Source: an uncultured Flavobacteriaceae bacterium
GTDB lineage: Bacteria > Bacteroidota > Bacteroidia > Flavobacteriales > Flavobacteriaceae
Direction: 5' to 3'
DNA: 61,235 nucleotides
Assembly: GCA_963974735.1 (NCBI GenBank)
Contig: CAXBEL010000001.1
Coordinates: 1 to 61,235 of the forward strand
Both the position numbers and the translations under genes were made by a program. The notes beneath the pieces were generated by a model. It was not told the DNA's origin. It worked only from the letters and a program-made list of their open reading frames with translations, and did not search any database. Below, in pieces: positions 11,970-24,878 of the stretch; position 1 is the first letter of the stretch, and the number at the start of each line of letters is the position of its first letter.

Positions 11970-12785
11970 TTAGCCGTTTAGGTTCCAGCTATTTAATTCT
12001 TTTATAAAATGGTGTGCGGTAAGGTCAAATTGGACGGGAACCACAGATACATATCCTTCCGCCAGTGCCCACTCATCTGTATCCTCACCTTTATCTTCAT
12101 TTACAAATTCTCCTGTTAACCAGTAATAATCGCGTCCCTGAGGGTTTTTTCTTTTGTCAAAGTTTTCCTTCCACTGTGCATTGGCCTGCCTGCAAATTTT
12201 TATTCCTTTAATTTCTTTTTCTGAAAGCTTAGGGATATTCACATTTAGAACAATACCTTTTGCCAAGCCATTTTTTAAAACATTTTTCGTAATACTTTTT
12301 ATATATTTTTTACAAGCTGAAAAATCTGCTGTAAGCGAATAATCCATCAAAGAAAACCCAATTGCGGGGATTCCTTCTACACCGGCTTCCACAGCAGCGC
12401 TCATTGTACCAGAATATATTACATTGATAGACGAGTTAGAACCGTGATTAATACCACTTACACAGATGTCCGGTTTACGTTGCATAATTTCCTGAGCACC
12501 TGCATACTTATGTGCCGCTACTAAAATAGTAGCAATCTTAACACAATCGGCCGGTGTGCCAGAACAACTATATTCTATATGAGACACATTTTTCTTTTGT
12601 TTAATAGGATCACAATAGATGGTATCGCTTACCGTTATGGCATGACCCATACCGCTCTGAGGACTGTCTGGTGCGACTACAACAACATCACCTATGGTTT
12701 TCATTACTTCGATTAGTGTACGTATGCCGGGAGCTGTTATACCATCGTCGTTTGTAACTAAAATAAGGGGTTTATTGTCGGCCAT
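11970..12785 (-). CDS. surE: 5'/3'-nucleotidase SurE, with an apparent 11-aa insertion
   Basis: ILVTNDDG, GTPADCV, SGINHGSN, YSGTMSAA; extra ILVAAHKYAGA after DCVKIAT. Confidence 0.93.
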   Translation of the reverse strand: MADNKPLILVTNDDGITAPGIRTLIEVMKTIGDVVVVAPDSPQSGMGHAITVSDTIYCDPIKQKKNVSHIEYSCSGTPADCVKIATILVAAHKYAGAQEIMQRKPDICVSGINHGSNSSINVIYSGTMSAAVEAGVEGIPAIGFSLMDYSLTADFSACKKYIKSITKNVLKNGLAKGIVLNVNIPKLSEKEIKGIKICRQANAQWKENFDKRKNPQGRDYYWLTGEFVNEDKGEDTDEWALAEGYVSVVPVQFDLTAHHFIKELNSWNLNG

Positions 12786-15065: not shown

Positions 15066-16184
15066 ATGGCTGAACAAGCAACTTCTTTAACTCAATTAGC
15101 GCTCCAAAAATTTAAAAGAAATTTTTGGGGCGTTTCTAGTTTTGTCTATATCGTCTTATGTGGTTTGGTGGCGCTTTTTGCTTATGTTCTTGCTCCAGAT
15201 GATTCACAGAATGCAAACCAAATGCATCTTTCGATTCATTCCAAAAAACCTGGATTTTCGGTTAAAATGTTAACCGTGCCAGGAGAGCAGACGTTAGACC
15301 AAAGTTTGTGGGATATTTATTTTTTCGGAAAAAAAAATACAGATACAGAGATTCCTATATTGGATTATAAAGTAACAGAAAATGAAGTGGAATATATTCC
15401 ATATTCTGAAAATGGAATTACCGAATTAACAAAATCTGTTGATTTAAACTATTACAGGAAAAATATCGGTGATTGGCATGAAACTAATTTCTCTAATAGA
15501 TTTATTGAAGAAAAAACCTTCCTCTTAGGAACTGATAAATACGGTAGAGACTTATTAAGTCGAATGCTTATAGGCGCTAGAATTTCCTTTAGTATAGGTT
15601 TTGTAGCGGTTCTAATTTCATTAGTCATAGGGATATTTCTAGGAGCGACAGCCGGCTATTATGGAGGTATGGTAGATACTTTTATTATGTGGCTAATTAA
15701 TGTTACTTGGTCCATTCCCACTTTATTATTGGTAATTGCTATTACACTGGCTTTAGGTAAGGGCTTTTGGCAGGTTTTTATCGCTGTGGGCCTTACGATG
15801 TGGGTAGAAGTTGCTAGAGTTGTTAGAGGGCAGGTTATGAGCGTTAAGCAGATGCAATATGTTACTGCCGCCAGGGCATTAGGTTTCGGGAATATGAGAA
15901 TAATAATGAGACACATTATTCCTAACATAATGGCTCCGGTTATTGTTATTTCAGCTGCGAATTTTGCAGGCGCAATTCTAATAGAAAGCGGGTTGAGTTT
16001 TTTAGGAATTGGAGCTCAGCCGCCTATGCCTAGTTGGGGGGCAATGATAAAGGATCATTATTCTTATATAATTTTAGGAAAAGCTTATCTGGCAATTATA
16101 CCAGGATTAGCAATTATGAGTCTGGTAATGGCCTTTATGCTAATAGGAAATGCTTTGAGAGATGCTTTAGATGTGAAGGGGTAA
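15066..16184 (+). CDS. Peptide ABC transporter permease (OppC/DppC family)
   Basis: LGTDKYGRDLLSR, EAA-like YVTAARALG, ESGLSFLGIG. Confidence 0.88.
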   Translation: MAEQATSLTQLALQKFKRNFWGVSSFVYIVLCGLVALFAYVLAPDDSQNANQMHLSIHSKKPGFSVKMLTVPGEQTLDQSLWDIYFFGKKNTDTEIPILDYKVTENEVEYIPYSENGITELTKSVDLNYYRKNIGDWHETNFSNRFIEEKTFLLGTDKYGRDLLSRMLIGARISFSIGFVAVLISLVIGIFLGATAGYYGGMVDTFIMWLINVTWSIPTLLLVIAITLALGKGFWQVFIAVGLTMWVEVARVVRGQVMSVKQMQYVTAARALGFGNMRIIMRHIIPNIMAPVIVISAANFAGAILIESGLSFLGIGAQPPMPSWGAMIKDHYSYIILGKAYLAIIPGLAIMSLVMAFMLIGNALRDALDVKG

Positions 16185-16230
16185 AAAAAACCAACCTGCC
16201 AGGATAGGGGACCTGGGTGATTGGTCTTTT
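16183..16230 (-). terminator. Interrupted hairpin with 8-U tail on the minus strand (probably bidirectional)
   Basis: ACCAA..CCAGG-ATAGGGGA-CCTGG..TTGGT on plus; A8 at 16183-16190 and CTTTT at 16226-16230. Confidence 0.65.
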
Positions 16231-16378
16231 GGCTAATATTACCTAATAAGTAAAAAATAGTATAGAAAATATCACTGCATTAGGGATTACTCGGCACTTG
16301 ACATGAAAAAATGTTTACCTAACCTATATATCTACCAGATAATCTCTAAGCGATTTTTCCTGACAAGTTTCTTTACCT
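16183..16378 (-). ncRNA. Candidate small RNA downstream of the CHAT gene
   Basis: Promoter-like motif at 16386-16416, terminator at 16183-16230, only 5- and 2-codon ATG ORFs between them, four TAGGT repeats. Confidence 0.4.
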
Positions 16379-16385
16379 ACTATAT

Positions 16386-16416
16386 ACTAGTTCTTTTTAA
16401 CCCTGATTTCTTACCC
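16386..16416 (-). promoter_or_regulatory. Putative ECF promoter overlapping the CHAT stop codon
   Basis: GGGTAAGAAA-N13-GAACTAGT; same boxes and spacing as 19905-19935. Confidence 0.55.
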
Positions 16417-19164
16417 TTTAAAAGAATTTTTGCGTGTTAAACTTTTGTTAACAGTAAAAATAGAAAAGATTAAAAATAGTAACGAGAAAATTATTGAAAG
16501 AATCTGCCATAGGGCAAAATCTTGATTGGGTAGTGCTTTTGCATCACCAACCAAAATAAAGGATGCCCAAAAATAAGGAGAGGCTTCACTTAGCTGGTGT
16601 GTATCCAGATAATCTAATTTAGCTTTTCGGAGAGCCTCACTTTTAGTTTTGCCCTTTAATAAATGCTCATAAAAGTTATCCATTAGCTTTGGCGTTGCTT
16701 TATCATCTACTTTCCATAGAGAGGATAAAACACTCTTTGATCCTGAAAGGAAAAACCCCCTTGCCAAGCTTAAAACACCTTCACCAACTTCTTGCTCTCC
16801 TGCATTGGTTTCGCATCCACTAAGCACAACAAGATTAGCATTGTTATAAGTCAAATAGAGTTCATTTAAATAAAGAATAGAATCTCTAAATATAATTCGC
16901 GGTTCAGTTTCATCACCGGCGCTAGCATGAGTTGCTAAATGAATTATGTTGTAATAAGGCAGACTTTTTAAGAAATTACTTTTTGTAGAATTTTGATTTA
17001 AATAAATCTTTTTGTCTTTAAAATTGTCGGCTATGTTTTTGACTTCATCAATACTATGATTTAGGACACTTAGATCAGAATTTAAAAATTCTTTACTTGC
17101 CATACCCAGAAAACTTTTAGAATTGCCTTCTGGTTTGTTTTCAAGAAATGATTTTTGGAAAGACGCACTATAGGTATAACTAATATTATAATCTTTTATA
17201 AGGAAGGAATTTCTAATCTTTTTTGAGGTTATAAAACTTTCAAATGGAATTCCATTAAGGTCATTATCAGGAACGACTGTGATGGTATTTATTTTTTTTT
17301 CAATACTCTGTGGAATTAAAATATGATATAGATTGTTAGCCAGCTGAGTATAATTTTCTAAATCTTTTTTATAAGCAAATGGAATACTTATAGATTTTGA
17401 GAAGGAAGTTATCTTATCAAATAGATTGTCCAAATCATGAATTTCAAAAAAATCAATGGTATTTTTAGAAATATACAAGCCAAAACCATTTTGATTGTCA
17501 ATTAGACTATTTGTATTTTCAGAAGAAATATAATAGGTTAACCAAGCTTCATCGCTTTTTAAATTATTTTGTAATGATTTAATTTGAATGATAGGAGTTT
17601 TGTAGCTTTTGGAATAATCAGGGGCAATTATATTAATGCTGTCTTGTAAAGTTTTGAGCGCCCTTCTGCTATTCAAAAGCTCTATATTAATCAGATCTTT
17701 ATTAGGATGGTTCTTTACTTCAAGATCAATAATAGCTTTCTGCAGCCTTATTTCTTCTTCTTTTAGTTCTTGTGGAATTATTAAAGAGCGTTGAAACTGC
17801 AATTTTTTAATTTCTTCACTAAGTAGAATGGCTTTATTCCGCTCCATAAAGTAAAATCCCTTTTCGGGATTTTTTGCTAAAAAACAGGCTTTAATGGCGT
17901 TTCCGTATATGGCATTACTCTGTTTTCGCCAAAATAATTGAGATTTTAGCTCTTCGTTGGTTTCACTTATCCTGTCTAAGGCCTGATCTGCCAAATCATA
18001 ATAATGAAGTGCTTTATCTAGTAATATGGTCTCATTTGAATTTAAAAAATACGCTAAATATGTATCGGCTAATTGAGGGAATGCTACTACAAGATTATCC
18101 AAATAGTCAGATTGAACATCTAAAGTTGTGTCAAGTCTTTTTATTTTGTCAAAATTTTCATCCGTAAATACATTTAATGCTTTTACTTGATATTTTATAC
18201 TGGTTTCATATTCTTTAATGGAGGCGTAGCAGTAACCTAAATTGCTATTAAGTGCATAAATATAGGAGCTGTCTTTTAAATTTGCAGCCTCCAAATTTTT
18301 CTTATGAATGGAAATAGCCTTAAAAGGTTGTGTGGTATTGTAAAGATTGCCTTTTAAAAGATTTATATATTTAATTTTAGATGAATCTTTAAGCTTACTG
18401 GCCAAGATTAAAGCCCTATTGAAGTAAAGCTCAGCTTTTGGAATATCTAAATGTTCATTTTGATTAAATAACTGACCTAAGCTATAATTAATAAAGTAGT
18501 CTATAGATGCGCTTTTAGGTAAGATTTTAGAAATAGAATCAGCTTGAATAAGACTATTTACAGCTAGATCATGATAGTCTTTGTCTTTTACATTTCTATA
18601 TAAAAAAGAAAGACTTATTAAGTTGGTTCGAAGTGCCCTATCATCGTGAGAGGCTTTGAGAATATTACCAGCTATTTGATAATAATTGATAGCTTTAATA
18701 TAATCATGTCTGTCTCTGTATATTCTACCAATTTGTCCGTACGCCCTAGCTGCAATGGAATTATCAGGAATAGTTTTTACTGCTTTTTCAAAAGCTTCTA
18801 TGCCTTTATCATTTCTATTTAATTTCAGATAATAGAATCCTAAAGTGTAAAGGGTACGTTGTAATAGAGAATCATTTTCTTTTGGATACTCATTTAGAAA
18901 ATTGACTGCTTTTATTTGGCTATTTAAAGCAGCTTGAAATTGTTTATTTTCATACAGGTAGTCGGCATATGAATCGTAAGCTTTAGGTAAAATAGTGCTA
19001 TTTTCCTTTTTTAAATTATTTATAAATTTTTCAATTAGAGAATCTTTTTTTTGAACATCAGAATCTAAAAGAATTTTGAAATCTTTTAAACTCTGACAAA
19101 AACACAATAAAGGAGAAAAAAAAATCCAGATAAAAAGTATTGACTTAATAACTGGATTTTTCAT
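16411..19164 (-). CDS. TPR-CHAT (caspase-like, clan CD) protease with signal peptide and C-terminal membrane anchor
   Basis: N-terminal signal, TPR-like helical repeats, VVPDNDLNGIPFE, IHLATHA (His), VLSGCET (Cys), SSLWKVDD, PYFWASF, C-terminal hydrophobic helix plus basic tail. Confidence 0.9.
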   Translation of the reverse strand: MKNPVIKSILFIWIFFSPLLCFCQSLKDFKILLDSDVQKKDSLIEKFINNLKKENSTILPKAYDSYADYLYENKQFQAALNSQIKAVNFLNEYPKENDSLLQRTLYTLGFYYLKLNRNDKGIEAFEKAVKTIPDNSIAARAYGQIGRIYRDRHDYIKAINYYQIAGNILKASHDDRALRTNLISLSFLYRNVKDKDYHDLAVNSLIQADSISKILPKSASIDYFINYSLGQLFNQNEHLDIPKAELYFNRALILASKLKDSSKIKYINLLKGNLYNTTQPFKAISIHKKNLEAANLKDSSYIYALNSNLGYCYASIKEYETSIKYQVKALNVFTDENFDKIKRLDTTLDVQSDYLDNLVVAFPQLADTYLAYFLNSNETILLDKALHYYDLADQALDRISETNEELKSQLFWRKQSNAIYGNAIKACFLAKNPEKGFYFMERNKAILLSEEIKKLQFQRSLIIPQELKEEEIRLQKAIIDLEVKNHPNKDLINIELLNSRRALKTLQDSINIIAPDYSKSYKTPIIQIKSLQNNLKSDEAWLTYYISSENTNSLIDNQNGFGLYISKNTIDFFEIHDLDNLFDKITSFSKSISIPFAYKKDLENYTQLANNLYHILIPQSIEKKINTITVVPDNDLNGIPFESFITSKKIRNSFLIKDYNISYTYSASFQKSFLENKPEGNSKSFLGMASKEFLNSDLSVLNHSIDEVKNIADNFKDKKIYLNQNSTKSNFLKSLPYYNIIHLATHASAGDETEPRIIFRDSILYLNELYLTYNNANLVVLSGCETNAGEQEVGEGVLSLARGFFLSGSKSVLSSLWKVDDKATPKLMDNFYEHLLKGKTKSEALRKAKLDYLDTHQLSEASPYFWASFILVGDAKALPNQDFALWQILSIIFSLLFLIFSIFTVNKSLTRKNSFKG

Positions 19165-19190
19165 TTTAATTTATAAGTAACCTAATAATA

Positions 19191-19520
19191 TTAATGCTCA
19201 AGTCTATTTTCCTCTTCCAATTGCTTTTCTAACTCCTCTAAATCACAATCACCTCCTGGTCTGCCTGGGTTAAAAATCCATACTTCTTCGTAAATATCGC
19301 TAGGTTGATTTGGTGCCATGCTTAAAAGATAAAATCTCTGAAAATAGTCAGATCTAATGTGGGCAATTTCCTTTCGATTAAGGTCTCTATGGTAACTAAT
19401 AAAAATCATAGTGCCAGATACTGCTTCTTCAGTCCGAATAATTTCAGTAATTTCAGGCTTTGGAGCAAAACTGCATAATGCAATAAATAATAACGGTAAA
19501 ATAATGCTTAATTTTTTCAT
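19191..19520 (-). CDS. Small secreted hypothetical protein co-oriented with the CHAT gene
   Basis: Signal peptide MKKLSIILPLLFIALCSFA; TAAATTTG promoter element at 19544-19551; 26-nt gap to the CHAT start. Confidence 0.75.
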   Translation of the reverse strand: MKKLSIILPLLFIALCSFAPKPEITEIIRTEEAVSGTMIFISYHRDLNRKEIAHIRSDYFQRFYLLSMAPNQPSDIYEEVWIFNPGRPGGDCDLEELEKQLEEENRLEH

Positions 19521-19627
19521 TGTTTTGGATTTTAGGGTTTTAACAAATTTAAAATATTATTTCGGAGAATAAATTTTTTTCTGAAATATAATTTTTTAAT
19601 TTCAAAATCTCAAAAATATCGCCTAGT

Positions 19628-20191
19628 ATGCATATTGAAGACCCTGATTATTTAGAAGGCCTTATTAGAGGAGATAAAAAAATAATATTACAAATCTATG
19701 AATTTTTTTTTCCAAAGGTCAATGGGTTCATAAAAAGCAATAAAGGGACACGTGATGATGCTGAGGATATCTTTCATAACGCGCTGTTTCAAATTACAGT
19801 AAGATATAAACGGGAGAAATTTGAAATTAACACTTCATTTGAAGCCTATTTATTTACCGTTTGTAAAAATTTATGGCGAAAAGAGTTAAATTTTTCTAAA
19901 AAAAGGGTAAGAAAAAACCCTGAAATCGAACTGGTTAGTGTAGAATCGATTACTGCTAAATCAATATTAGAACAGCAGAGATGGGAACTATTTGATGAAA
20001 AATTAGAAGAATTATCTCCTAACTGTAGAGATTTGTTAAAGGCATATTTTAAACAAAAGCCATACGAGGAGATAATAGAAAGTTTTGGTTATGCCAATGA
20101 AAACACCGCATTTCAACGTGTATTTAAGTGTAAGGCTAAACTGATAAAGATCATAAAAGAAGACGATCGCTTCAGAAAATTAATGAAATAA
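19628..20191 (+). CDS. ECF-type RNA polymerase sigma factor
   Basis: Region 2 DAEDIFHNAL...FEAYLFTVCKNLW; region 4 LSPNCRDLL...YEEI...VFKCKAKL; 187 aa. Confidence 0.9.
   Translation: MHIEDPDYLEGLIRGDKKIILQIYEFFFPKVNGFIKSNKGTRDDAEDIFHNALFQITVRYKREKFEINTSFEAYLFTVCKNLWRKELNFSKKRVRKNPEIELVSVESITAKSILEQQRWELFDEKLEELSPNCRDLLKAYFKQKPYEEIIESFGYANENTAFQRVFKCKAKLIKIIKEDDRFRKLMK
19905..19935 (+). promoter_or_regulatory. Putative ECF promoter inside the sigma gene, facing the anti-sigma gene
   Basis: GGGTAAGAAA-N13-GAACTGGT, in the linker between regions 2 and 4. Confidence 0.5.
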
Positions 20192-20198
20192 CTGCTCT

Positions 20199-21011
20199 AT
20201 GAATTCTAAAACACAGGATCAGATTGAAAAATATCTTAATGGCGGACTCTCTAAAGAAGAGACCAAAGATTTTGAGTTAAAACTTAATGAGAATTATGAA
20301 TTTGCTGAAGAAGTAAAACTTTACAAATACGTAAATGAAGGTCTTGGTGAAGAATCTTGGTTTGAGATGGGTATTGAGAAAGATAATATTCAATATCAAA
20401 TGATGTTGAAAGCTGCAAATAGTAGCGAAGGTCAAAAGACACAAAGGGATTTACTAGAAGCTAAGGAAGTATATTTTGCTAAGCAAAGACAAGCAAAACA
20501 GAGACGTAGAATTTATGTTGCCATTAGCTCAGCAGCTGCGGCATTGTTGTTTTTGTTAATGACAACTGTGCTTGCACCTTCTCAATCTTCAGATGAGCTA
20601 TTTGTAGCTCATTTTACAAATAACGATATGCCTTCACTTGTATCACGTAGTAATGATGGCGTAAACGATCTGTTTAAAGGAATACAGGCTTATAATAATG
20701 AGAACTATAAGGAGGCTATAAATTATTTTGATAATTATTATACAGAAGCAAATGCAATCAATCCTTTGGTTTATAGTTATTCGGGCTGGGCTTACGCCTA
20801 TACTGGTGATGACAAAAAAGCATTTAGCGATTTTAATAAACTTGCTGATTCTGATCATTTGGACAGTTCAAAAGGTCTGTGGTTCAATGCTCTTTTACAT
20901 TTAAAATTAAACGAAACCAAAGAAGCAAAATCTTCCCTGCAAAAAATTGTGGTTGATGAGAATAATTTTAAGTTTGCCGAGGCGAAAGAAATTTTGGCAG
21001 ACTTAAAATAG
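20199..21011 (+). CDS. Putative anti-sigma factor (cytoplasmic N-domain, single TM, extracytoplasmic TPR)
   Basis: IEKYLNGGLSKEE N-terminus typical of anti-sigma domains; RRR then TM IYVAISSAAAALLFLLM; TPR-like C-terminus; 7 nt after the sigma stop. Confidence 0.75.
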   Translation: MNSKTQDQIEKYLNGGLSKEETKDFELKLNENYEFAEEVKLYKYVNEGLGEESWFEMGIEKDNIQYQMMLKAANSSEGQKTQRDLLEAKEVYFAKQRQAKQRRRIYVAISSAAAALLFLLMTTVLAPSQSSDELFVAHFTNNDMPSLVSRSNDGVNDLFKGIQAYNNENYKEAINYFDNYYTEANAINPLVYSYSGWAYAYTGDDKKAFSDFNKLADSDHLDSSKGLWFNALLHLKLNETKEAKSSLQKIVVDENNFKFAEAKEILADLK

Positions 21012-21857: not shown

Positions 21858-23120
21858 CTACCATTCGTTTACTCTATTTCCGTCAAGTTTTACAAAAATA
21901 AAAAGCAAAATTGTAAACCCCCATAATCCGGACCCTCCATAACTGAAGAATGGCAGAGGTATACCCACCGTTGGAAACATACCAGTAACCATCCCAATAT
22001 TTACTAGAAAATGGATAAAAAGTATGCCAGCAAGACTATATCCATAAATACGGCTGAATTGGTTTTTTTGCTTTTCTGCCAGAAAAATGATGCGCATCAT
22101 AAGGGCGATAAATAAGAAGACTACTAATGTGCTTCCTAAAAAACCCCATTCTTCTCCTACAGTACTAAAAATATAATCTGTATGTTGCTCAGGCACAAAA
22201 TTTCCTTTTGTTTGAGTCCCTTTTAAAAATCCTCGACCTGTCCAGCCTCCATTACCAATAGCAATTTCAGATTGATAGGTGTTATAGCCAATACTTTTTG
22301 TGTCAACTTCTTTTCCTAGAACTACATTAAATCTATCTCTGTGTCTTTGTTCAAATACATTTTGAAAGATATAGTTGACCGAAAAAACGAATGCCATACA
22401 AATGAGAGGTAAAATGTAGAGTAAACTTTTACCCGTTCTTTTCTTTCGTTTTTTAACTAAAGCAATAATAGCTATCAAGACTATTAAAGCACATACCCAT
22501 AGTGGACCTATAGCTAGTGTCAGGACAAATAAGGATATAGTTATAAAACCAACAATAAGATATACTCCAGAAAGCCCTTCTCTATAAAGCGGAAAAAAGA
22601 ATGCTGCATAAACAAGCGCGCTCCCAGGATCTGGCTGAGGTATTATAATGAGAGCAGGTAAGGCTATAATAGCAAAAGCTTTGAGTTGATGCTGTAAAGA
22701 AGCTACATTTGTTTGTATATCACTTAGATATTTAGCTAATGCCAGAGCTGTTGCTGCTTTTGCAAATTCACTAGGTTGTAGGCTGAAACTGCCAAATGCA
22801 TACCAACTCGTAGCACCTGAAATGTTTTTTCCGAAGAGAAAAAGACCTAATAAAGATAAAAGTGAGACTACATAAATTACACTTGCAAACCGTTCAAAAA
22901 ATTTTGCGTCTAAGAACAGAATAAAGACAATGATTACAAAACTAAGTATTATCCATATAAACTGTTTTGAGTATAAATTAGAAATGTCAAAAGATCCTGA
23001 TATAACATCTGGTTCAAGGGAAGCAGAGTAGATATTAATCCATCCTATTGTAATTAAGGCAACATAAAGTAAGATCAAAAGCCAGTCAAAATTACCGACC
23101 GATCTAGAAAAACTGCTCAT
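21858..23120 (-). CDS. rodA: Rod shape-determining SEDS glycosyltransferase RodA
   Basis: LQPSEFAK, QPDPGS, PEQHTDYIF, GIPLPFFSYGGS; last gene of the mre cluster. Confidence 0.93.
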   Translation of the reverse strand: MSSFSRSVGNFDWLLILLYVALITIGWINIYSASLEPDVISGSFDISNLYSKQFIWIILSFVIIVFILFLDAKFFERFASVIYVVSLLSLLGLFLFGKNISGATSWYAFGSFSLQPSEFAKAATALALAKYLSDIQTNVASLQHQLKAFAIIALPALIIIPQPDPGSALVYAAFFFPLYREGLSGVYLIVGFITISLFVLTLAIGPLWVCALIVLIAIIALVKKRKKRTGKSLLYILPLICMAFVFSVNYIFQNVFEQRHRDRFNVVLGKEVDTKSIGYNTYQSEIAIGNGGWTGRGFLKGTQTKGNFVPEQHTDYIFSTVGEEWGFLGSTLVVFLFIALMMRIIFLAEKQKNQFSRIYGYSLAGILFIHFLVNIGMVTGMFPTVGIPLPFFSYGGSGLWGFTILLFIFVKLDGNRVNEW

Positions 23121-24878
23121 TAATAATTAATCTTAAAGGGTTCTCCGCTTAAAGGCTTTGCATATTCTTCTTCTAGACTGTGGCTAAGAATCCAATCTTC
23201 TAAATCTGTTCTGGATATTTCACCACCTTTTAAATATTTTTCTATCATAAGGCTGGCTATGCGCCCAGCATATCGCGAACCCCAATATCCGTTTTCCACA
23301 AAAACAGCTAAGGCAATCTTAGGATTATCTTTTGGAGCAAAAGCAACAAAAATAGAGTGATCTGTTAACTGTACCCGTTTACCATCAATTTTTGTGTAAT
23401 TTTCAGCTGTACCAGTTTTACCACAAATTTCTATGCCAGGTATTCTAAGTGCTTGCGCAGTACCGTAGTTGTATACATCGTGCATTCCCTGAACAACAGG
23501 TTCAAAATTTTGAGCATCTACGGTAGTTATATGCTTGGTACGATACTCTAATGGTATTTTCTCTGTATCTCCTTCTATTTCTTTTAAAATATGAGGTGTA
23601 TAAAACCAACCTCTATTAGCGATTGCTGCTGTTACATTGGCTAATTGCATTGGAGTTGTCATGACTTCACCTTGCCATATATCCTCCAAGGCCAAAACTT
23701 TCCAGATGTTTTTTCCATACATCAATACCTTCTTGTGGTGTAGGATATTTTTCTATAGTACGTCTATATACATTCGCAAAGTAGGCATTACAGGAATTGG
23801 CAATACCGGGAACCATACTTAAAGGGCTTTTGTGGTGGTGACATCCAAGTTTTCTGCCCCTAGAGCCATAATAGTAACCTCCGTGACATGCAAAGCTCTC
23901 TTTGGTATCTACAACTCCTTCCTGAAGCGCTATAAGTGCATTTAATGTTTTAAAAGGTGATCCTGGAGGATATTCCCCTTGCAATACTCTATCAAACAGA
24001 GGTTTTGCGATAGTGTCTAAATATAAATCTGTAAAATGTTTAGATCTTTCCCTTCCTACTAGTAGAGCAGGATCATAATTAGGTGCCGCAACAAGAGCTA
24101 ATATTTGGCCTGTGTTGGGTTCTAATGCTACAATTCCTCCTCGCTTATTTACCATCAATTCCTCTCCATACTTTTGCAATTCCGAATCAATTGTAAGTTG
24201 AAGATCTTTTCCTTGCTGAGGCAGAGTATCTAATGCACCCTCTTTATAAGCGCCTATATCTCTATTAAACCGGTCCTTTTGAATAAACTTAACTCCTTTT
24301 ACCCCTCTTAGAACCTCTTCATATTGTTGTTCAACACCTTGCCGACCTATTAGATCACCTGATTGGTAATAAGCATTTTGTTTAATATCACGATTGTTAA
24401 CCTCTGCTATATAACCTAAAAAATTTGCACCATAATCAATCTGATAATCACGAAGAGATCGCTTTTGAATATAAAAGCCTTCATACTTCCTCATTTTTTC
24501 TTGGAGGTATGCATACTCAGTTTTTGTAAGTTGAGGTATTACAACAGATGGCAGGCGTGGAGAATAAACACGTGCTTTACGCAAGCGTTCCTTTAATTTC
24601 TCTTTATCCATGTTAAGCAATTGGCACATTTCTAATGTGTCAAATGGCTTTACTTCTCTTGGTATGACCATTACGTCATAAGAAGGTTGATTGCTTACTA
24701 GAAGTTTGCCCTCTCTATCATAAATGTGACCACGCTGAGGATAGTCATAAATACGTTTAATGGCGTTATTCTCTGATAGCCTTATGGCAGAAGTATCTAG
24801 AACCTGGAGGTAGAATAACCTTCCAGTAAATACAAGACCAGATAGAAGTATTATAGAAAATAGTAATAATTTTCTCAT
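23120..24878 (-). pseudogene. mrdA: Penicillin-binding protein 2, split by a frameshifting deletion at ~23674/23675
   Basis: Upstream frame carries SPFK and SCN and stops after FGLGGYMAR; downstream frame resumes at QGEVMTTPMQLAN and carries KTGT; span of 1759 nt is not a multiple of 3. Confidence 0.85.

What the first reader, a model, noticed from the sequence alone, without database searches (positions are those of the whole stretch)
16183..21011. Candidate caspase-like protease to anti-sigma to ECF signalling system with a small secreted partner and an sRNA output
Seen: four genes in a divergent layout, visibly AT-richer than their neighbours and inserted among housekeeping genes. They encode a 109-aa secreted protein, a TPR-CHAT protein with intact His/Cys motifs (HLATHA, LSGCET) plus signal peptide and C-terminal TM, an ECF sigma, and a single-TM TPR protein. 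Established: CHAT domains are clan CD caspase/separase-like proteases, and in type III-E CRISPR the TPR-CHAT protein Csx29 cleaves Csx30, which binds a sigma factor. Inference: this is a CRISPR-independent, trans-envelope version. Both the protease domain and the anti-sigma TPR domain are predicted periplasmic, so CHAT could act as a site-1 protease releasing the ECF. CHAT/ECF neighbourhoods recur in Bacteroidota as far as I recall, but I know of no mechanistic description.
Basis: partly seen in the sequence, partly recalled or inferred. Interest (0 to 1): 0.85.

Follow-up and report, generated by a model that had tools for sequence, protein, structure and literature searches.

The report
Split caspase-like protease sigma-factor switch
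A Bacteroidota genome carries a four-gene module, also found in many relatives, in which a caspase-like protease predicted to face the periplasm likely cuts a membrane-bound inhibitor after one conserved arginine to free a sigma factor; it looks like an unstudied two-protein version of the Myxococcus DdvA switch.

Summary
Real. The four genes, motifs and layout are as described. The TPR-CHAT, sigma and single-TM TPR protein sit together at 85 of 100 family CHAT loci examined. Q-rule signal peptides and positive-inside charges place the CHAT and the TPR domain in the periplasm. The putative anti-sigma has a conserved Arg150 past its membrane helix; CHAT Glu707, at a clan-CD S1-pocket position, is kept in 89 of 90 Arg-type loci and lost in all 5 Met-type loci (probably one event). 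A complex prediction gives weak support (0.50; best control 0.01). Added here: the 109-aa protein is a stand-alone homologue of a subtilase prodomain; the sigma's predicted promoter (GGGTAAS-N15/16-GAAC) is embedded, conserved at synonymous sites, inside the sigma gene facing the anti-sigma; and the genome's best-scoring copy heads a 198-nt structured non-coding stretch. That RNA has no homologue and may be a relic. No cleavage, binding or expression is shown. No paper on this module was found; this scan has noted the trio in about 62 other genomes.

The parts
16411..19164 (-). TPR-CHAT protease, 917 aa: predicted signal peptide 1-23 followed by Gln24, TPR solenoid, CHAT domain 607-874 (His746, Cys784; candidate S1 acids Glu707 and Asp821), C-terminal TM 888-906 with a basic tail
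   Evidence: model pLDDT 92, pTM 0.92 whose best Foldseek matches are Csx29, DdvA and separase
19191..19520 (-). 109-aa exported protein; stand-alone homologue of the N-terminal prodomain of S8 subtilase lipoproteins that occupy the same slot in sister loci
   Evidence: leave-one-out HMM E=2.2e-11 among 2692 ORFs; hhalign to S8 N-termini 94.9%, E=4.6e-8; ferredoxin-like model
19628..20191 (+). ECF sigma factor, 187 aa
   Evidence: TIGR02937 over cut-off; Pfam Sigma70_r2 below cut-off
20199..21011 (+). Putative anti-sigma factor, 270 aa: cytoplasmic N-domain without Cys/His, TM 107-125, periplasmic linker with Arg150 (codon 20646-20648, motif VSR/S), TPR domain
16388..16416 (-). Predicted promoter of this sigma (GGGTAAG-N16-GAACTA), overlapping the CHAT stop codon
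   Evidence: rank 1 in the 4.5-Mb genome with a matrix trained on 25 sites from related loci, this locus excluded; motif enrichment
16184..16381 (-). Candidate 198-nt non-coding RNA: long irregular hairpin starting at the predicted +1, then a terminator-like hairpin (16185-16235) with a U run; no ORF; sRNA or relic leader
   Evidence: z -4.34 whole, -2.80 hairpin alone; terminator z -4.68; no Rfam family; no homologue in 300 family genomes
19905..19933 (+). Predicted internal promoter (GGGTAAG-N16-GAACTG) inside the sigma coding sequence, about 290 nt before the anti-sigma start
   Evidence: rank 2 in the genome; score >=14 in 13 of 30 divergent-layout sigma genes vs 0 of 59 others; synonymous-site bias; present in 4 of 4 complete-enough close metagenome sigma genes not used for training

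Best explanation
This is a conserved Bacteroidota gene module in which a membrane-anchored TPR-CHAT protease, predicted to face the periplasm, likely acts as the site-1 protease of the neighbouring putative anti-sigma factor, cutting it after Arg150 so that RseP would finish it and free the ECF sigma. Shown by sequence: the linkage of the genes, the catalytic dyad, the topology signals, the Arg150 motif and the promoter motif. Inferred: sigma binding by the N-domain, the cut, the RseP step and the trigger. The freed sigma would read GGGTAAS-N15/16-GAAC promoters. In relatives these precede exported proteins. Here they precede a 198-nt non-coding RNA and, from inside the sigma gene, the anti-sigma gene (with nucA 3 nt behind it), which would give a negative-feedback shut-off. 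The 109-aa prodomain-like protein is most likely an exported modulator (inhibitor, decoy or ligand) derived from the subtilase gene of sister loci; its role is the least supported step.
For: Co-occurrence: 85 of 100 family CHAT loci, and all 3 CHAT loci of this genome, have both partners, in several gene orders; 13 of 60 phylum-sample loci do. Topology: small residue + Gln after the N-terminal hydrophobic stretch in 80 of 91 CHATs (background 11%), C-terminal TM in 89 of 91, basic tail in 86 of 89; anti-sigma basic side N-terminal in 89 of 89 (Q-rule, PMC5837995, search listing only). His and Cys were invariant in the Arg-type set. Of 102 pairs, 90 have Arg at the linker site; 89 of those have Glu707 and all 90 Asp821. 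All 5 Met-type loci have Leu/Thr at 707, and two Lys-type loci that lose Glu707 gain Asp at Cys-2. These are the alpha1, L4 and L5 positions that set P1 specificity in clan CD (MALT1 Asp365, Asp462, Glu500; PMC4357240 passages); Glu707 lies on the helix after the first catalytic-domain strand in the model. Complex prediction: weak support, 0.50 vs best control 0.01, runs sharing at least 73% of contacts, partner pLDDT at least 82; the mark was reached by 116 of 157 solved and 2 of 215 mismatched pairs, but at 0.60 or under by only 18 solved pairs and both mismatches. An RseP gene is in the genome. Precedent: RseP degrades DdvA lacking its TPR-CHAT (PMC11506125); Csx29 cleavage of Csx30 relieves CASP-sigma (PMC10028731 passages). 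Promoter evidence.
Against: No cleavage, binding or expression data. The Met-type loci form one clade (100% SH-aLRT in a quick tree of 86 rows; the fifth, L177, was not in that tree), so the co-variation is about two independent events. An Arg in an S1 pocket can also inhibit (gingipain prodomain Arg126). 12 of 100 family loci and 46 of 60 phylum loci have a CHAT with no anti-sigma found by my profile, including 9 with a C-terminal TM, so such CHATs have other jobs. The anti-sigma call rests on position, topology and sub-cut-off matches (NF052375: E=0.0044 here; 28 of 75 relatives). In DdvA itself CHAT activity was not seen and dyad mutants behaved like wild type in unstimulated cells. rseP is near only 3 of 103 loci. 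This locus lacks the promoter before the small gene that 13 of 19 close relatives have.
Confidence: 0.6

Rival explanations
1. The sigma/anti-sigma pair is released by a general periplasmic protease. The CHAT is a downstream or side-branch enzyme that processes the exported partner (subtilase zymogen, prodomain, lipoprotein).
For: An exported protein sits directly before CHAT in 63 of 88 trio loci, and in relatives that operon carries the sigma promoter. TM-anchored CHATs occur without the pair. A Prc-type S41 protease gene lies two genes away, though it is there in relatives lacking the module too.
Against: The exported partner varies (S8, prodomain only, ~200-aa lipoprotein, large secreted proteins) while the CHAT/anti-sigma link is constant. 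It does not explain the near-invariant Arg150 or its co-variation with Glu707.
Confidence: 0.18
2. CHAT binds the anti-sigma linker without a productive cut. Arg150 is a pseudo-substrate that holds the protease off, or CHAT shields the anti-sigma until a signal separates them.
For: It explains the same co-variation and the weak complex support. An inhibitory Arg in an S1 pocket is known for the gingipain prodomain. DdvA's TPR-CHAT blocks RseP sterically.
Against: His and Cys are invariant across the family, which argues for catalysis. A site about 25 residues outside the membrane is where a site-1 cut would expose the helix to RseP (inference from the DdvA truncations).
Confidence: 0.12
3. The 198-nt unit is not a functional sRNA but the left-over leader and terminator of a target gene that was lost at this locus. 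(Separate question from the protease mechanism; the confidence refers to this part only.)
For: All 11 of 20 close relatives with a promoter after CHAT have an ORF 17-281 nt further on; only this locus has none. No homologue in 300 family genomes beyond 20-39-nt matches. The terminator would be needed anyway to end the CHAT operon against convergent oppC.
Against: The promoter is the best match in the genome. The hairpin begins at the predicted +1 and is more stable than the same stretch in all 11 relatives (z -2.95 vs -1.72 to +1.75). A second promoter-hairpin-terminator unit exists on contig C314.
Confidence: 0.5
4. Like DdvS and CASP-sigma, the module is an anti-phage alarm, with nucA or the RNA as effector.
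For: Both characterised CHAT-sigma systems are defensive. The module is patchy within the genus. nucA directly follows the anti-sigma here and in 5 other loci.
Against: Only 6 of 150 flanking genes scanned (of 166 picked) hit PADLOC: one TPR, one mad2 and four QatD models, no Cas or CBASS model. Predicted targets in relatives are mostly exported proteins. nucA is also present in genus relatives that lack the module.
Confidence: 0.15

Closest known systems
DdvA/DdvS of Myxococcus xanthus (PMC11506125; abstract, passages and part 1 of the Discussion read; PDB 8rot, 8rw5)
   Same: ECF sigma, single-pass anti-sigma, periplasmic TPR-CHAT with His-Cys dyad; proposed CHAT cut in a juxtamembrane linker followed by RseP. 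The CHAT model and profile match DdvA.
   Different: DdvA is one chain with a zinc-binding anti-sigma domain. Here protease and anti-sigma are separate, the N-domain has no Cys/His, the anti-sigma has its own TPR domain, and the CHAT is anchored at its C-terminus. DdvS drives a CBASS-CRISPR island; the authors found DdvA-like proteins only in Myxococcota and one Comamonas.
Type III-E CASP/Craspase: Csx29 - Csx30 - CASP-sigma (PMC10028731, passages read)
   Same: A TPR-CHAT protease cuts a separate sigma inhibitor in trans; best structural matches of the CHAT model.
   Different: Cytoplasmic and activated by Cas7-11 bound to target RNA; cuts after a hydrophobic residue. No Cas gene is linked here, and the module is trans-envelope and predicted Arg-specific.
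ECF54 of Actinobacteria (PMC7826278 supplement, passages read; the file is cut in storage)
   Same: ECF genes encoded with a TPR-CHAT protein and a subtilase, the same three-way association as in sister loci here.
   Different: Actinobacteria only, no putative anti-sigma, different predicted promoter (GTATCAG / CTCC).
SAVED-CHAT / PCaspase / PCi / PCc-sigma of Haliangium (bioRxiv 10.1101/2023.06.23.546230, passages read)
   Same: CHAT protease encoded with a sigma factor and a small protease-inhibitor-like protein (PCi), a precedent for a small inhibitory partner.
   Different: Cytoplasmic, cA3-activated CRISPR cascade; PCi inhibits PCaspase and has a predicted CI-2-like fold.
Regulated intramembrane proteolysis of RseA by DegS then RseP (as summarised in PMC10028731 and PMC11506125)
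   Same: Predicted two-step logic: a dedicated site-1 protease, then RseP.
   Different: Known site-1 proteases are serine or metallo-proteases (recalled); a clan CD cysteine protease in this role has not been shown in the papers I read.

Membership tests
CHAT (clan CD) protease | CHAT domain above the Pfam cut-off | tested here: met
   PF12770 194.8 bits vs 24
CHAT (clan CD) protease | His-Cys dyad and caspase-like fold | tested here: met
   His746/Cys784 invariant in the Arg-type set; model matches Csx29, DdvA and separase, E down to 1e-16
CHAT (clan CD) protease | Proteolytic activity | not testable with these tools
   needs an assay
ECF sigma factor | Short sigma-70 family protein of ECF type | tested here: met
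   TIGR02937 51.1 vs 42.9 bits, 187 aa
ECF sigma factor | Assignment to a numbered ECF group | not tested
   no group profiles on hand; in the stored (cut) supplement 'CHAT' occurs only under ECF54
Class I transmembrane anti-sigma factor | Gene directly after the ECF; single TM with N-terminus inside | tested here: met
Class I transmembrane anti-sigma factor | N-terminal anti-sigma domain | tested here: inconclusive
   only sub-cut-off matches to anti-sigma models; no solved anti-sigma among the best 60 PDB matches shown
Class I transmembrane anti-sigma factor | Binds and inhibits the sigma | not tested
DdvA/DdvS system | Zinc anti-sigma domain, TM and TPR-CHAT in one chain | tested here: not met
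   two genes; no Cys or His in residues 1-106 of the anti-sigma
DdvA/DdvS system | Linked CBASS/CRISPR regulon | tested here: not met
   housekeeping neighbours; no Cas or CBASS model among 150 flanking genes of relatives; the rest of the genome was not searched for Cas
Type III-E Craspase/CASP | Encoded with Cas7-11 and Csx30; cytoplasmic | tested here: not met
ECF54 | Actinobacterial, no anti-sigma, GTATCAG/CTCC promoter | tested here: not met
Subtilase (S8) prodomain | Sequence homology to the region N-terminal of an S8 catalytic domain | tested here: met
   of the 150 best library hits 104 are 380-520 aa and 95 of these have S8 Asp and Ser motifs; 37 of 37 long hits scanned are Pfam S8. 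The library profile itself held 11 S8 N-termini among 21 rows; the S8-free profile also found S8 proteins (best E 2e-5)
Subtilase (S8) prodomain | Match to Pfam Fervidolysin_NPro-like or Inhibitor_I9 above cut-off | tested here: not met
   none for this protein; two relatives sub-cut-off, E 0.047 and 0.022
Subtilase (S8) prodomain | Prodomain fold | tested here: inconclusive
   ferredoxin-like model; protease prodomains 8gko_A (Z 5.2, rmsd 3.3, 67 aligned) and PCSK9 (Z 5.2, rmsd 3.6-3.9) score below ribosomal S6 and others (best Z 6.8)
Known sRNA families (Rfam 15) | Match at the gathering score | tested here: not met

The most novel reading that the evidence does not exclude
The module is a protease-surveillance circuit. 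The exported subtilase prodomain holds the caspase-like protease inactive until foreign or own proteolysis removes it. CHAT then cuts the anti-sigma at Arg150, and the freed sigma transcribes a structured sRNA (perhaps a second one on contig C314) plus its own inhibitor from a promoter hidden in its coding sequence. This would be the first shown caspase-like site-1 protease acting in trans across a bacterial envelope, in a module that about half of the family's sampled genomes have a CHAT for.
Probability: 0.13. Interest if true: 0.85.

Novelty: new variant of a known kind. Interest (0 to 1): 0.65.

Why it matters
The proposal that a periplasmic CHAT domain acts as a site-1 protease (DdvA) is untested because its trigger is unknown. 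This module splits enzyme and substrate and offers what is needed to test the idea: a predicted cut site (Arg150), natural Arg-type and Met-type pairs in one genome for specificity swaps, and a predicted promoter for a reporter. CHAT genes were found in 124 of 251 sampled family genomes, and most CHAT loci examined carry the pair, so this would be a common, unstudied signalling route in these bacteria that controls exported proteins. A promoter conserved inside a sigma gene to drive its own inhibitor is a compact feedback design worth testing on its own.

Tried and rejected
The search for related loci with the CHAT in genome contigs found no relative. The 109-aa protein has one near-length relative by single-sequence search, no Pfam/NCBIfam/PADLOC family, no usable ESM Atlas hit and no Foldseek match at E<=0.001. 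No RNA holder was listed for the region; this is no evidence on expression. A tiny peptide ORF, as earlier notes report elsewhere, is not present in the 198-nt unit (longest ATG-started frame 5 codons). A shared motif CCCCTATC..TGGCAGG looked like a conserved RNA element but 12 of its 14 matches in 301 genomes lie in ORFs, with about 6 control matches: rejected. The first promoter matrix was mis-built (6 sites) and its genome ranking was discarded; only the enrichment counts of that call are used. The synonymous-resampling p-values are biased by picking the best position (unrelated sigma genes also give small p) and are not relied on; one search is. The exact pattern was written after seeing the sites and gives 3 matches against 2 control matches, so it is not independent evidence. 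phmmer of the CHAT domain against PDB found nothing; the profile did, but its alignment to the craspase protease is gapped at Glu707, so the S1 assignment rests on topology. The careful tree did not finish; only the quick tree was used. Literature searches that found no paper on this module: (PMC open-licence and bioRxiv only; subscription journals and the cut part of the ECF supplement were not seen).
Full report
OBSERVATION. The four ORFs are at the stated places: a 917-aa TPR-CHAT (16411-19164, -), a 109-aa protein (19191-19520, -), a 187-aa ECF sigma (19628-20191, +) and a 270-aa single-TM TPR protein (20199-21011, +). Pfam gives CHAT at 607-874 far above cut-off, plus TPRs; the sigma passes TIGR02937. 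The catalytic residues are His746 and Cys784. GC is 0.308 against 0.356 +/- 0.021; 2.8% of 1343 genome windows are as low. In 17 of 17 same-genus loci fetched, oppC and nucA are adjacent with no module. The module also adjoins nucA or oppC in 3 of 100 family loci and 3 of 16 metagenome loci, so the slot is either a hotspot or ancestral with losses. The host is a Bacteroidota, probably Flavobacteriaceae; that is my inference from gene content, and no call names it.

CO-OCCURRENCE. CHAT was found in 124 of 251 family genomes. I fetched about 13 kb around 100 of the 150 listed matches (233 in all). I took mostly the best match per genome and left out truncated frames and most extra copies, so the sample leans to high-scoring CHATs. 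With profiles seeded from this genome's three loci, 85 of 100 had both sigma and anti-sigma-like genes, 3 only the latter, 1 only a sigma, and 11 neither; gene order varies. The genome's two other CHATs (contigs C155, C11) have the same trio, next to large exported proteins; its only rseP lies beside the C11 copy. In 60 loci hand-picked for family diversity from a phylum-wide search (171 of 351 genomes positive), 13 had the trio and 40 had CHAT alone; most of these lack the C-terminal TM, but 8 TM-anchored CHATs in GC-rich genomes also had no pair by my profiles.

TOPOLOGY. SignalP was not available, so I used family statistics. Of 91 CHATs with an anti-sigma partner, 84 have an N-terminal hydrophobic stretch, 80 a small residue + Gln just after it (background 11%; the Bacteroidetes Q-rule, PMC5837995, search listing only), 89 a C-terminal TM, and 86 of those 89 a basic tail. 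All 89 full-length anti-sigma-like proteins are more basic on the N-terminal side of their TM. Both the CHAT and the TPR domain are therefore predicted periplasmic. The CHAT model (pLDDT 92) matches Csx29, DdvA and separase.

CANDIDATE CUT SITE. Arg150, about 25 residues past the TM, is the best-conserved linker residue (85%). Of 102 CHAT/anti-sigma pairs, 90 have Arg, 5 Met, 6 Lys and 1 Thr. CHAT Glu707 is Glu in 89 of 90 Arg loci and Leu/Thr in 5 of 5 Met loci; Asp821 is Asp in all 90; two Lys loci without Glu707 have Asp at Cys-2. In clan CD, P1 specificity is set by alpha1, L4 and L5 (MALT1 Asp365, Asp462, Glu500; PMC4357240 passages), and Glu707, Cys-2 and Asp821 fall at those places by the model's secondary structure (my mapping). 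The four Met loci in the quick tree are one clade, so this is about two independent switches. A complex prediction of CHAT 31-880 with anti-sigma 127-270 gave weak support: 0.50 against a best control of 0.01, runs agreeing in at least 73% of contacts, partner pLDDT at least 82. The mark was reached by 116 of 157 solved and 2 of 215 mismatched pairs, but at 0.60 or under by only 18 solved pairs and both mismatches; no interface was given.

THE 109-AA PROTEIN. It is nearly an orphan by single-sequence search. A profile from 10 proteins in the same slot of related loci finds it at E=2.2e-11 and also finds the N-termini of S8 subtilase lipoproteins in that slot; hhalign gives 94.9%, E=4.6e-8 (S8 confirmed). 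The domain occurs at 27 of 103 loci, with or without the protease domain. In a 1.84-billion-protein library the profile gives 185 hits; of the best 150, 104 are 380-520 aa, 95 of them with S8 motifs, and 38 are short; 37 of 37 long hits scanned are Pfam S8. Its model is a ferredoxin-like sandwich, compatible with but not specific for prodomains. It is thus a stand-alone prodomain homologue. More generally, an exported protein of varying type precedes CHAT at 63 of 88 trio loci. Whether it inhibits, activates or is a relic is unknown; PCi is a precedent for a small inhibitor beside a CHAT and a sigma.

PROMOTERS. GGTAA[CG] occurs in 13 of 19 regions before the exported gene and 12 of 20 regions after CHAT in close relatives, against 1 and 1 on the opposite strand and 0.8 and 1.4 in shuffles. 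A matrix from 25 such sites (GGGTAAS-N15/16-GAAC; this locus excluded) ranks window 16416 (-) first in the genome, 19905 (+) second and C314:3385 third; it finds nothing before this locus's small gene. The second site lies inside the sigma gene, about 290 nt before the anti-sigma. A site scoring >=14 is at that place in 13 of 30 divergent-layout sigma genes and 0 of 59 others. The four columns with the strongest third-base bias among 167 are residues 92-95, the -35 box, and Leu after the -10 Glu uses CTN in 13 of 13 cases against 5.9 expected (relatives are not independent). The site is also in L242, L243, L244 and L246, which were not used for training. I infer a feedback promoter for the anti-sigma (and nucA, 3 nt behind it). 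That the motif belongs to this sigma is inferred from linkage.

THE RNA. From the predicted +1 near 16381 to the U run at 16184 lie 198 nt with no ORF, folding at z -4.34; the 5' hairpin alone gives -2.80, lower than the same stretch in 11 relatives. No Rfam family matches and no homologue was found in 300 family genomes. All 11 relatives with this promoter have an ORF behind it, mostly exported proteins, one lanthipeptide-like precursor (my reading). No RNA run was listed. sRNA and relic are about equally likely.

MECHANISM AND RIVALS. Most likely (0.6), CHAT is the dedicated site-1 protease: a signal sensed by the TPR solenoid activates it, it cuts after Arg150, RseP follows, the sigma transcribes exported proteins or here the RNA, and the internal promoter restores the anti-sigma. 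Rivals: CHAT acts on the exported partner (0.18), or binds without cutting (0.12). A defence role is less likely (0.15): 6 of 150 flanking genes scanned (of 166 picked) hit PADLOC, none a Cas or CBASS model.

COMPARISON. It works like DdvA/DdvS, where a periplasmic TPR-CHAT is proposed to cut the linker before RseP; there the RseP step was shown and CHAT activity was not (PMC11506125). It is not a member: two chains, no zinc domain, no linked defence island. It shares the in-trans logic of Csx29/Csx30/CASP-sigma (PMC10028731) without CRISPR, and the ECF + CHAT + subtilase association of actinobacterial ECF54, which lacks an anti-sigma. Seven searches found no paper on the Bacteroidota module; subscription journals and the cut part of the ECF supplement were not seen. 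This scan holds 63 earlier notes on the trio in at least 62 genomes. Word look-ups for the internal promoter with the prodomain, and for the promoter motif, returned none, which does not show that no note mentions them.

VERDICT. A real, widespread module and a new variant of a known kind. Interest 0.65.

Noticed in passing
G000 contig C314:3385-3530 (+); L220: Third-best match to the promoter matrix, followed by a hairpin and a strong terminator between a clpS-like gene and a tRNA: a possible second non-coding target. No Rfam family at gathering score. Not present after clpS in 8 genus relatives, one of which has a weaker site at another place. The terminator may simply end the upstream operon.
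   Followed up: partly
G000 contigs C155:2699-7265 and C11:10671-15240: Two more sigma/anti-sigma/CHAT loci of the Met type (linker Met, CHAT Leu at 707), beside large exported proteins (one with a subtilase-like motif); the genome's only rseP is at C11:7134-8453.
   Followed up: partly
L053, L064, L247 (leaders after the CHAT-side promoter): A shared leader motif (GACACAA..GTGAGTGTC ... TGTTCAC) precedes different target genes; a possible cis-regulatory RNA. Absent from this locus.
   Followed up: no
L053 downstream of CHAT: The promoter precedes a short Cys-rich lanthipeptide-like ORF and a 412-aa LanC-like ORF (labels from my recall, not scanned).
   Followed up: no
L262 (= L120) and window 16195-16210: The only two intergenic matches of CCCCTATC..TGGCAGG among 14 both lie right after a CHAT gene, but in opposite orientation; probably chance.
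   Followed up: partly
L192, L194, L196, L202, L206, L212, L216, L217: Signal peptide + C-terminal TM TPR-CHAT genes in GC-rich genomes of the phylum with no sigma or anti-sigma found nearby; several lie beside recF-like or murQ-like genes (labels recalled).
   Followed up: no
L076:7173-8522 and L130:7305-7949: The prodomain-like lipoprotein carries long acidic tandem repeats in place of the S8 domain.
   Followed up: no
window 23120-24878: The PBP2-like gene (label recalled) is in two frames (403 + 201 aa), a frameshift or assembly error; surE at 11970-12785 has an apparent short in-frame insertion.
   Followed up: no
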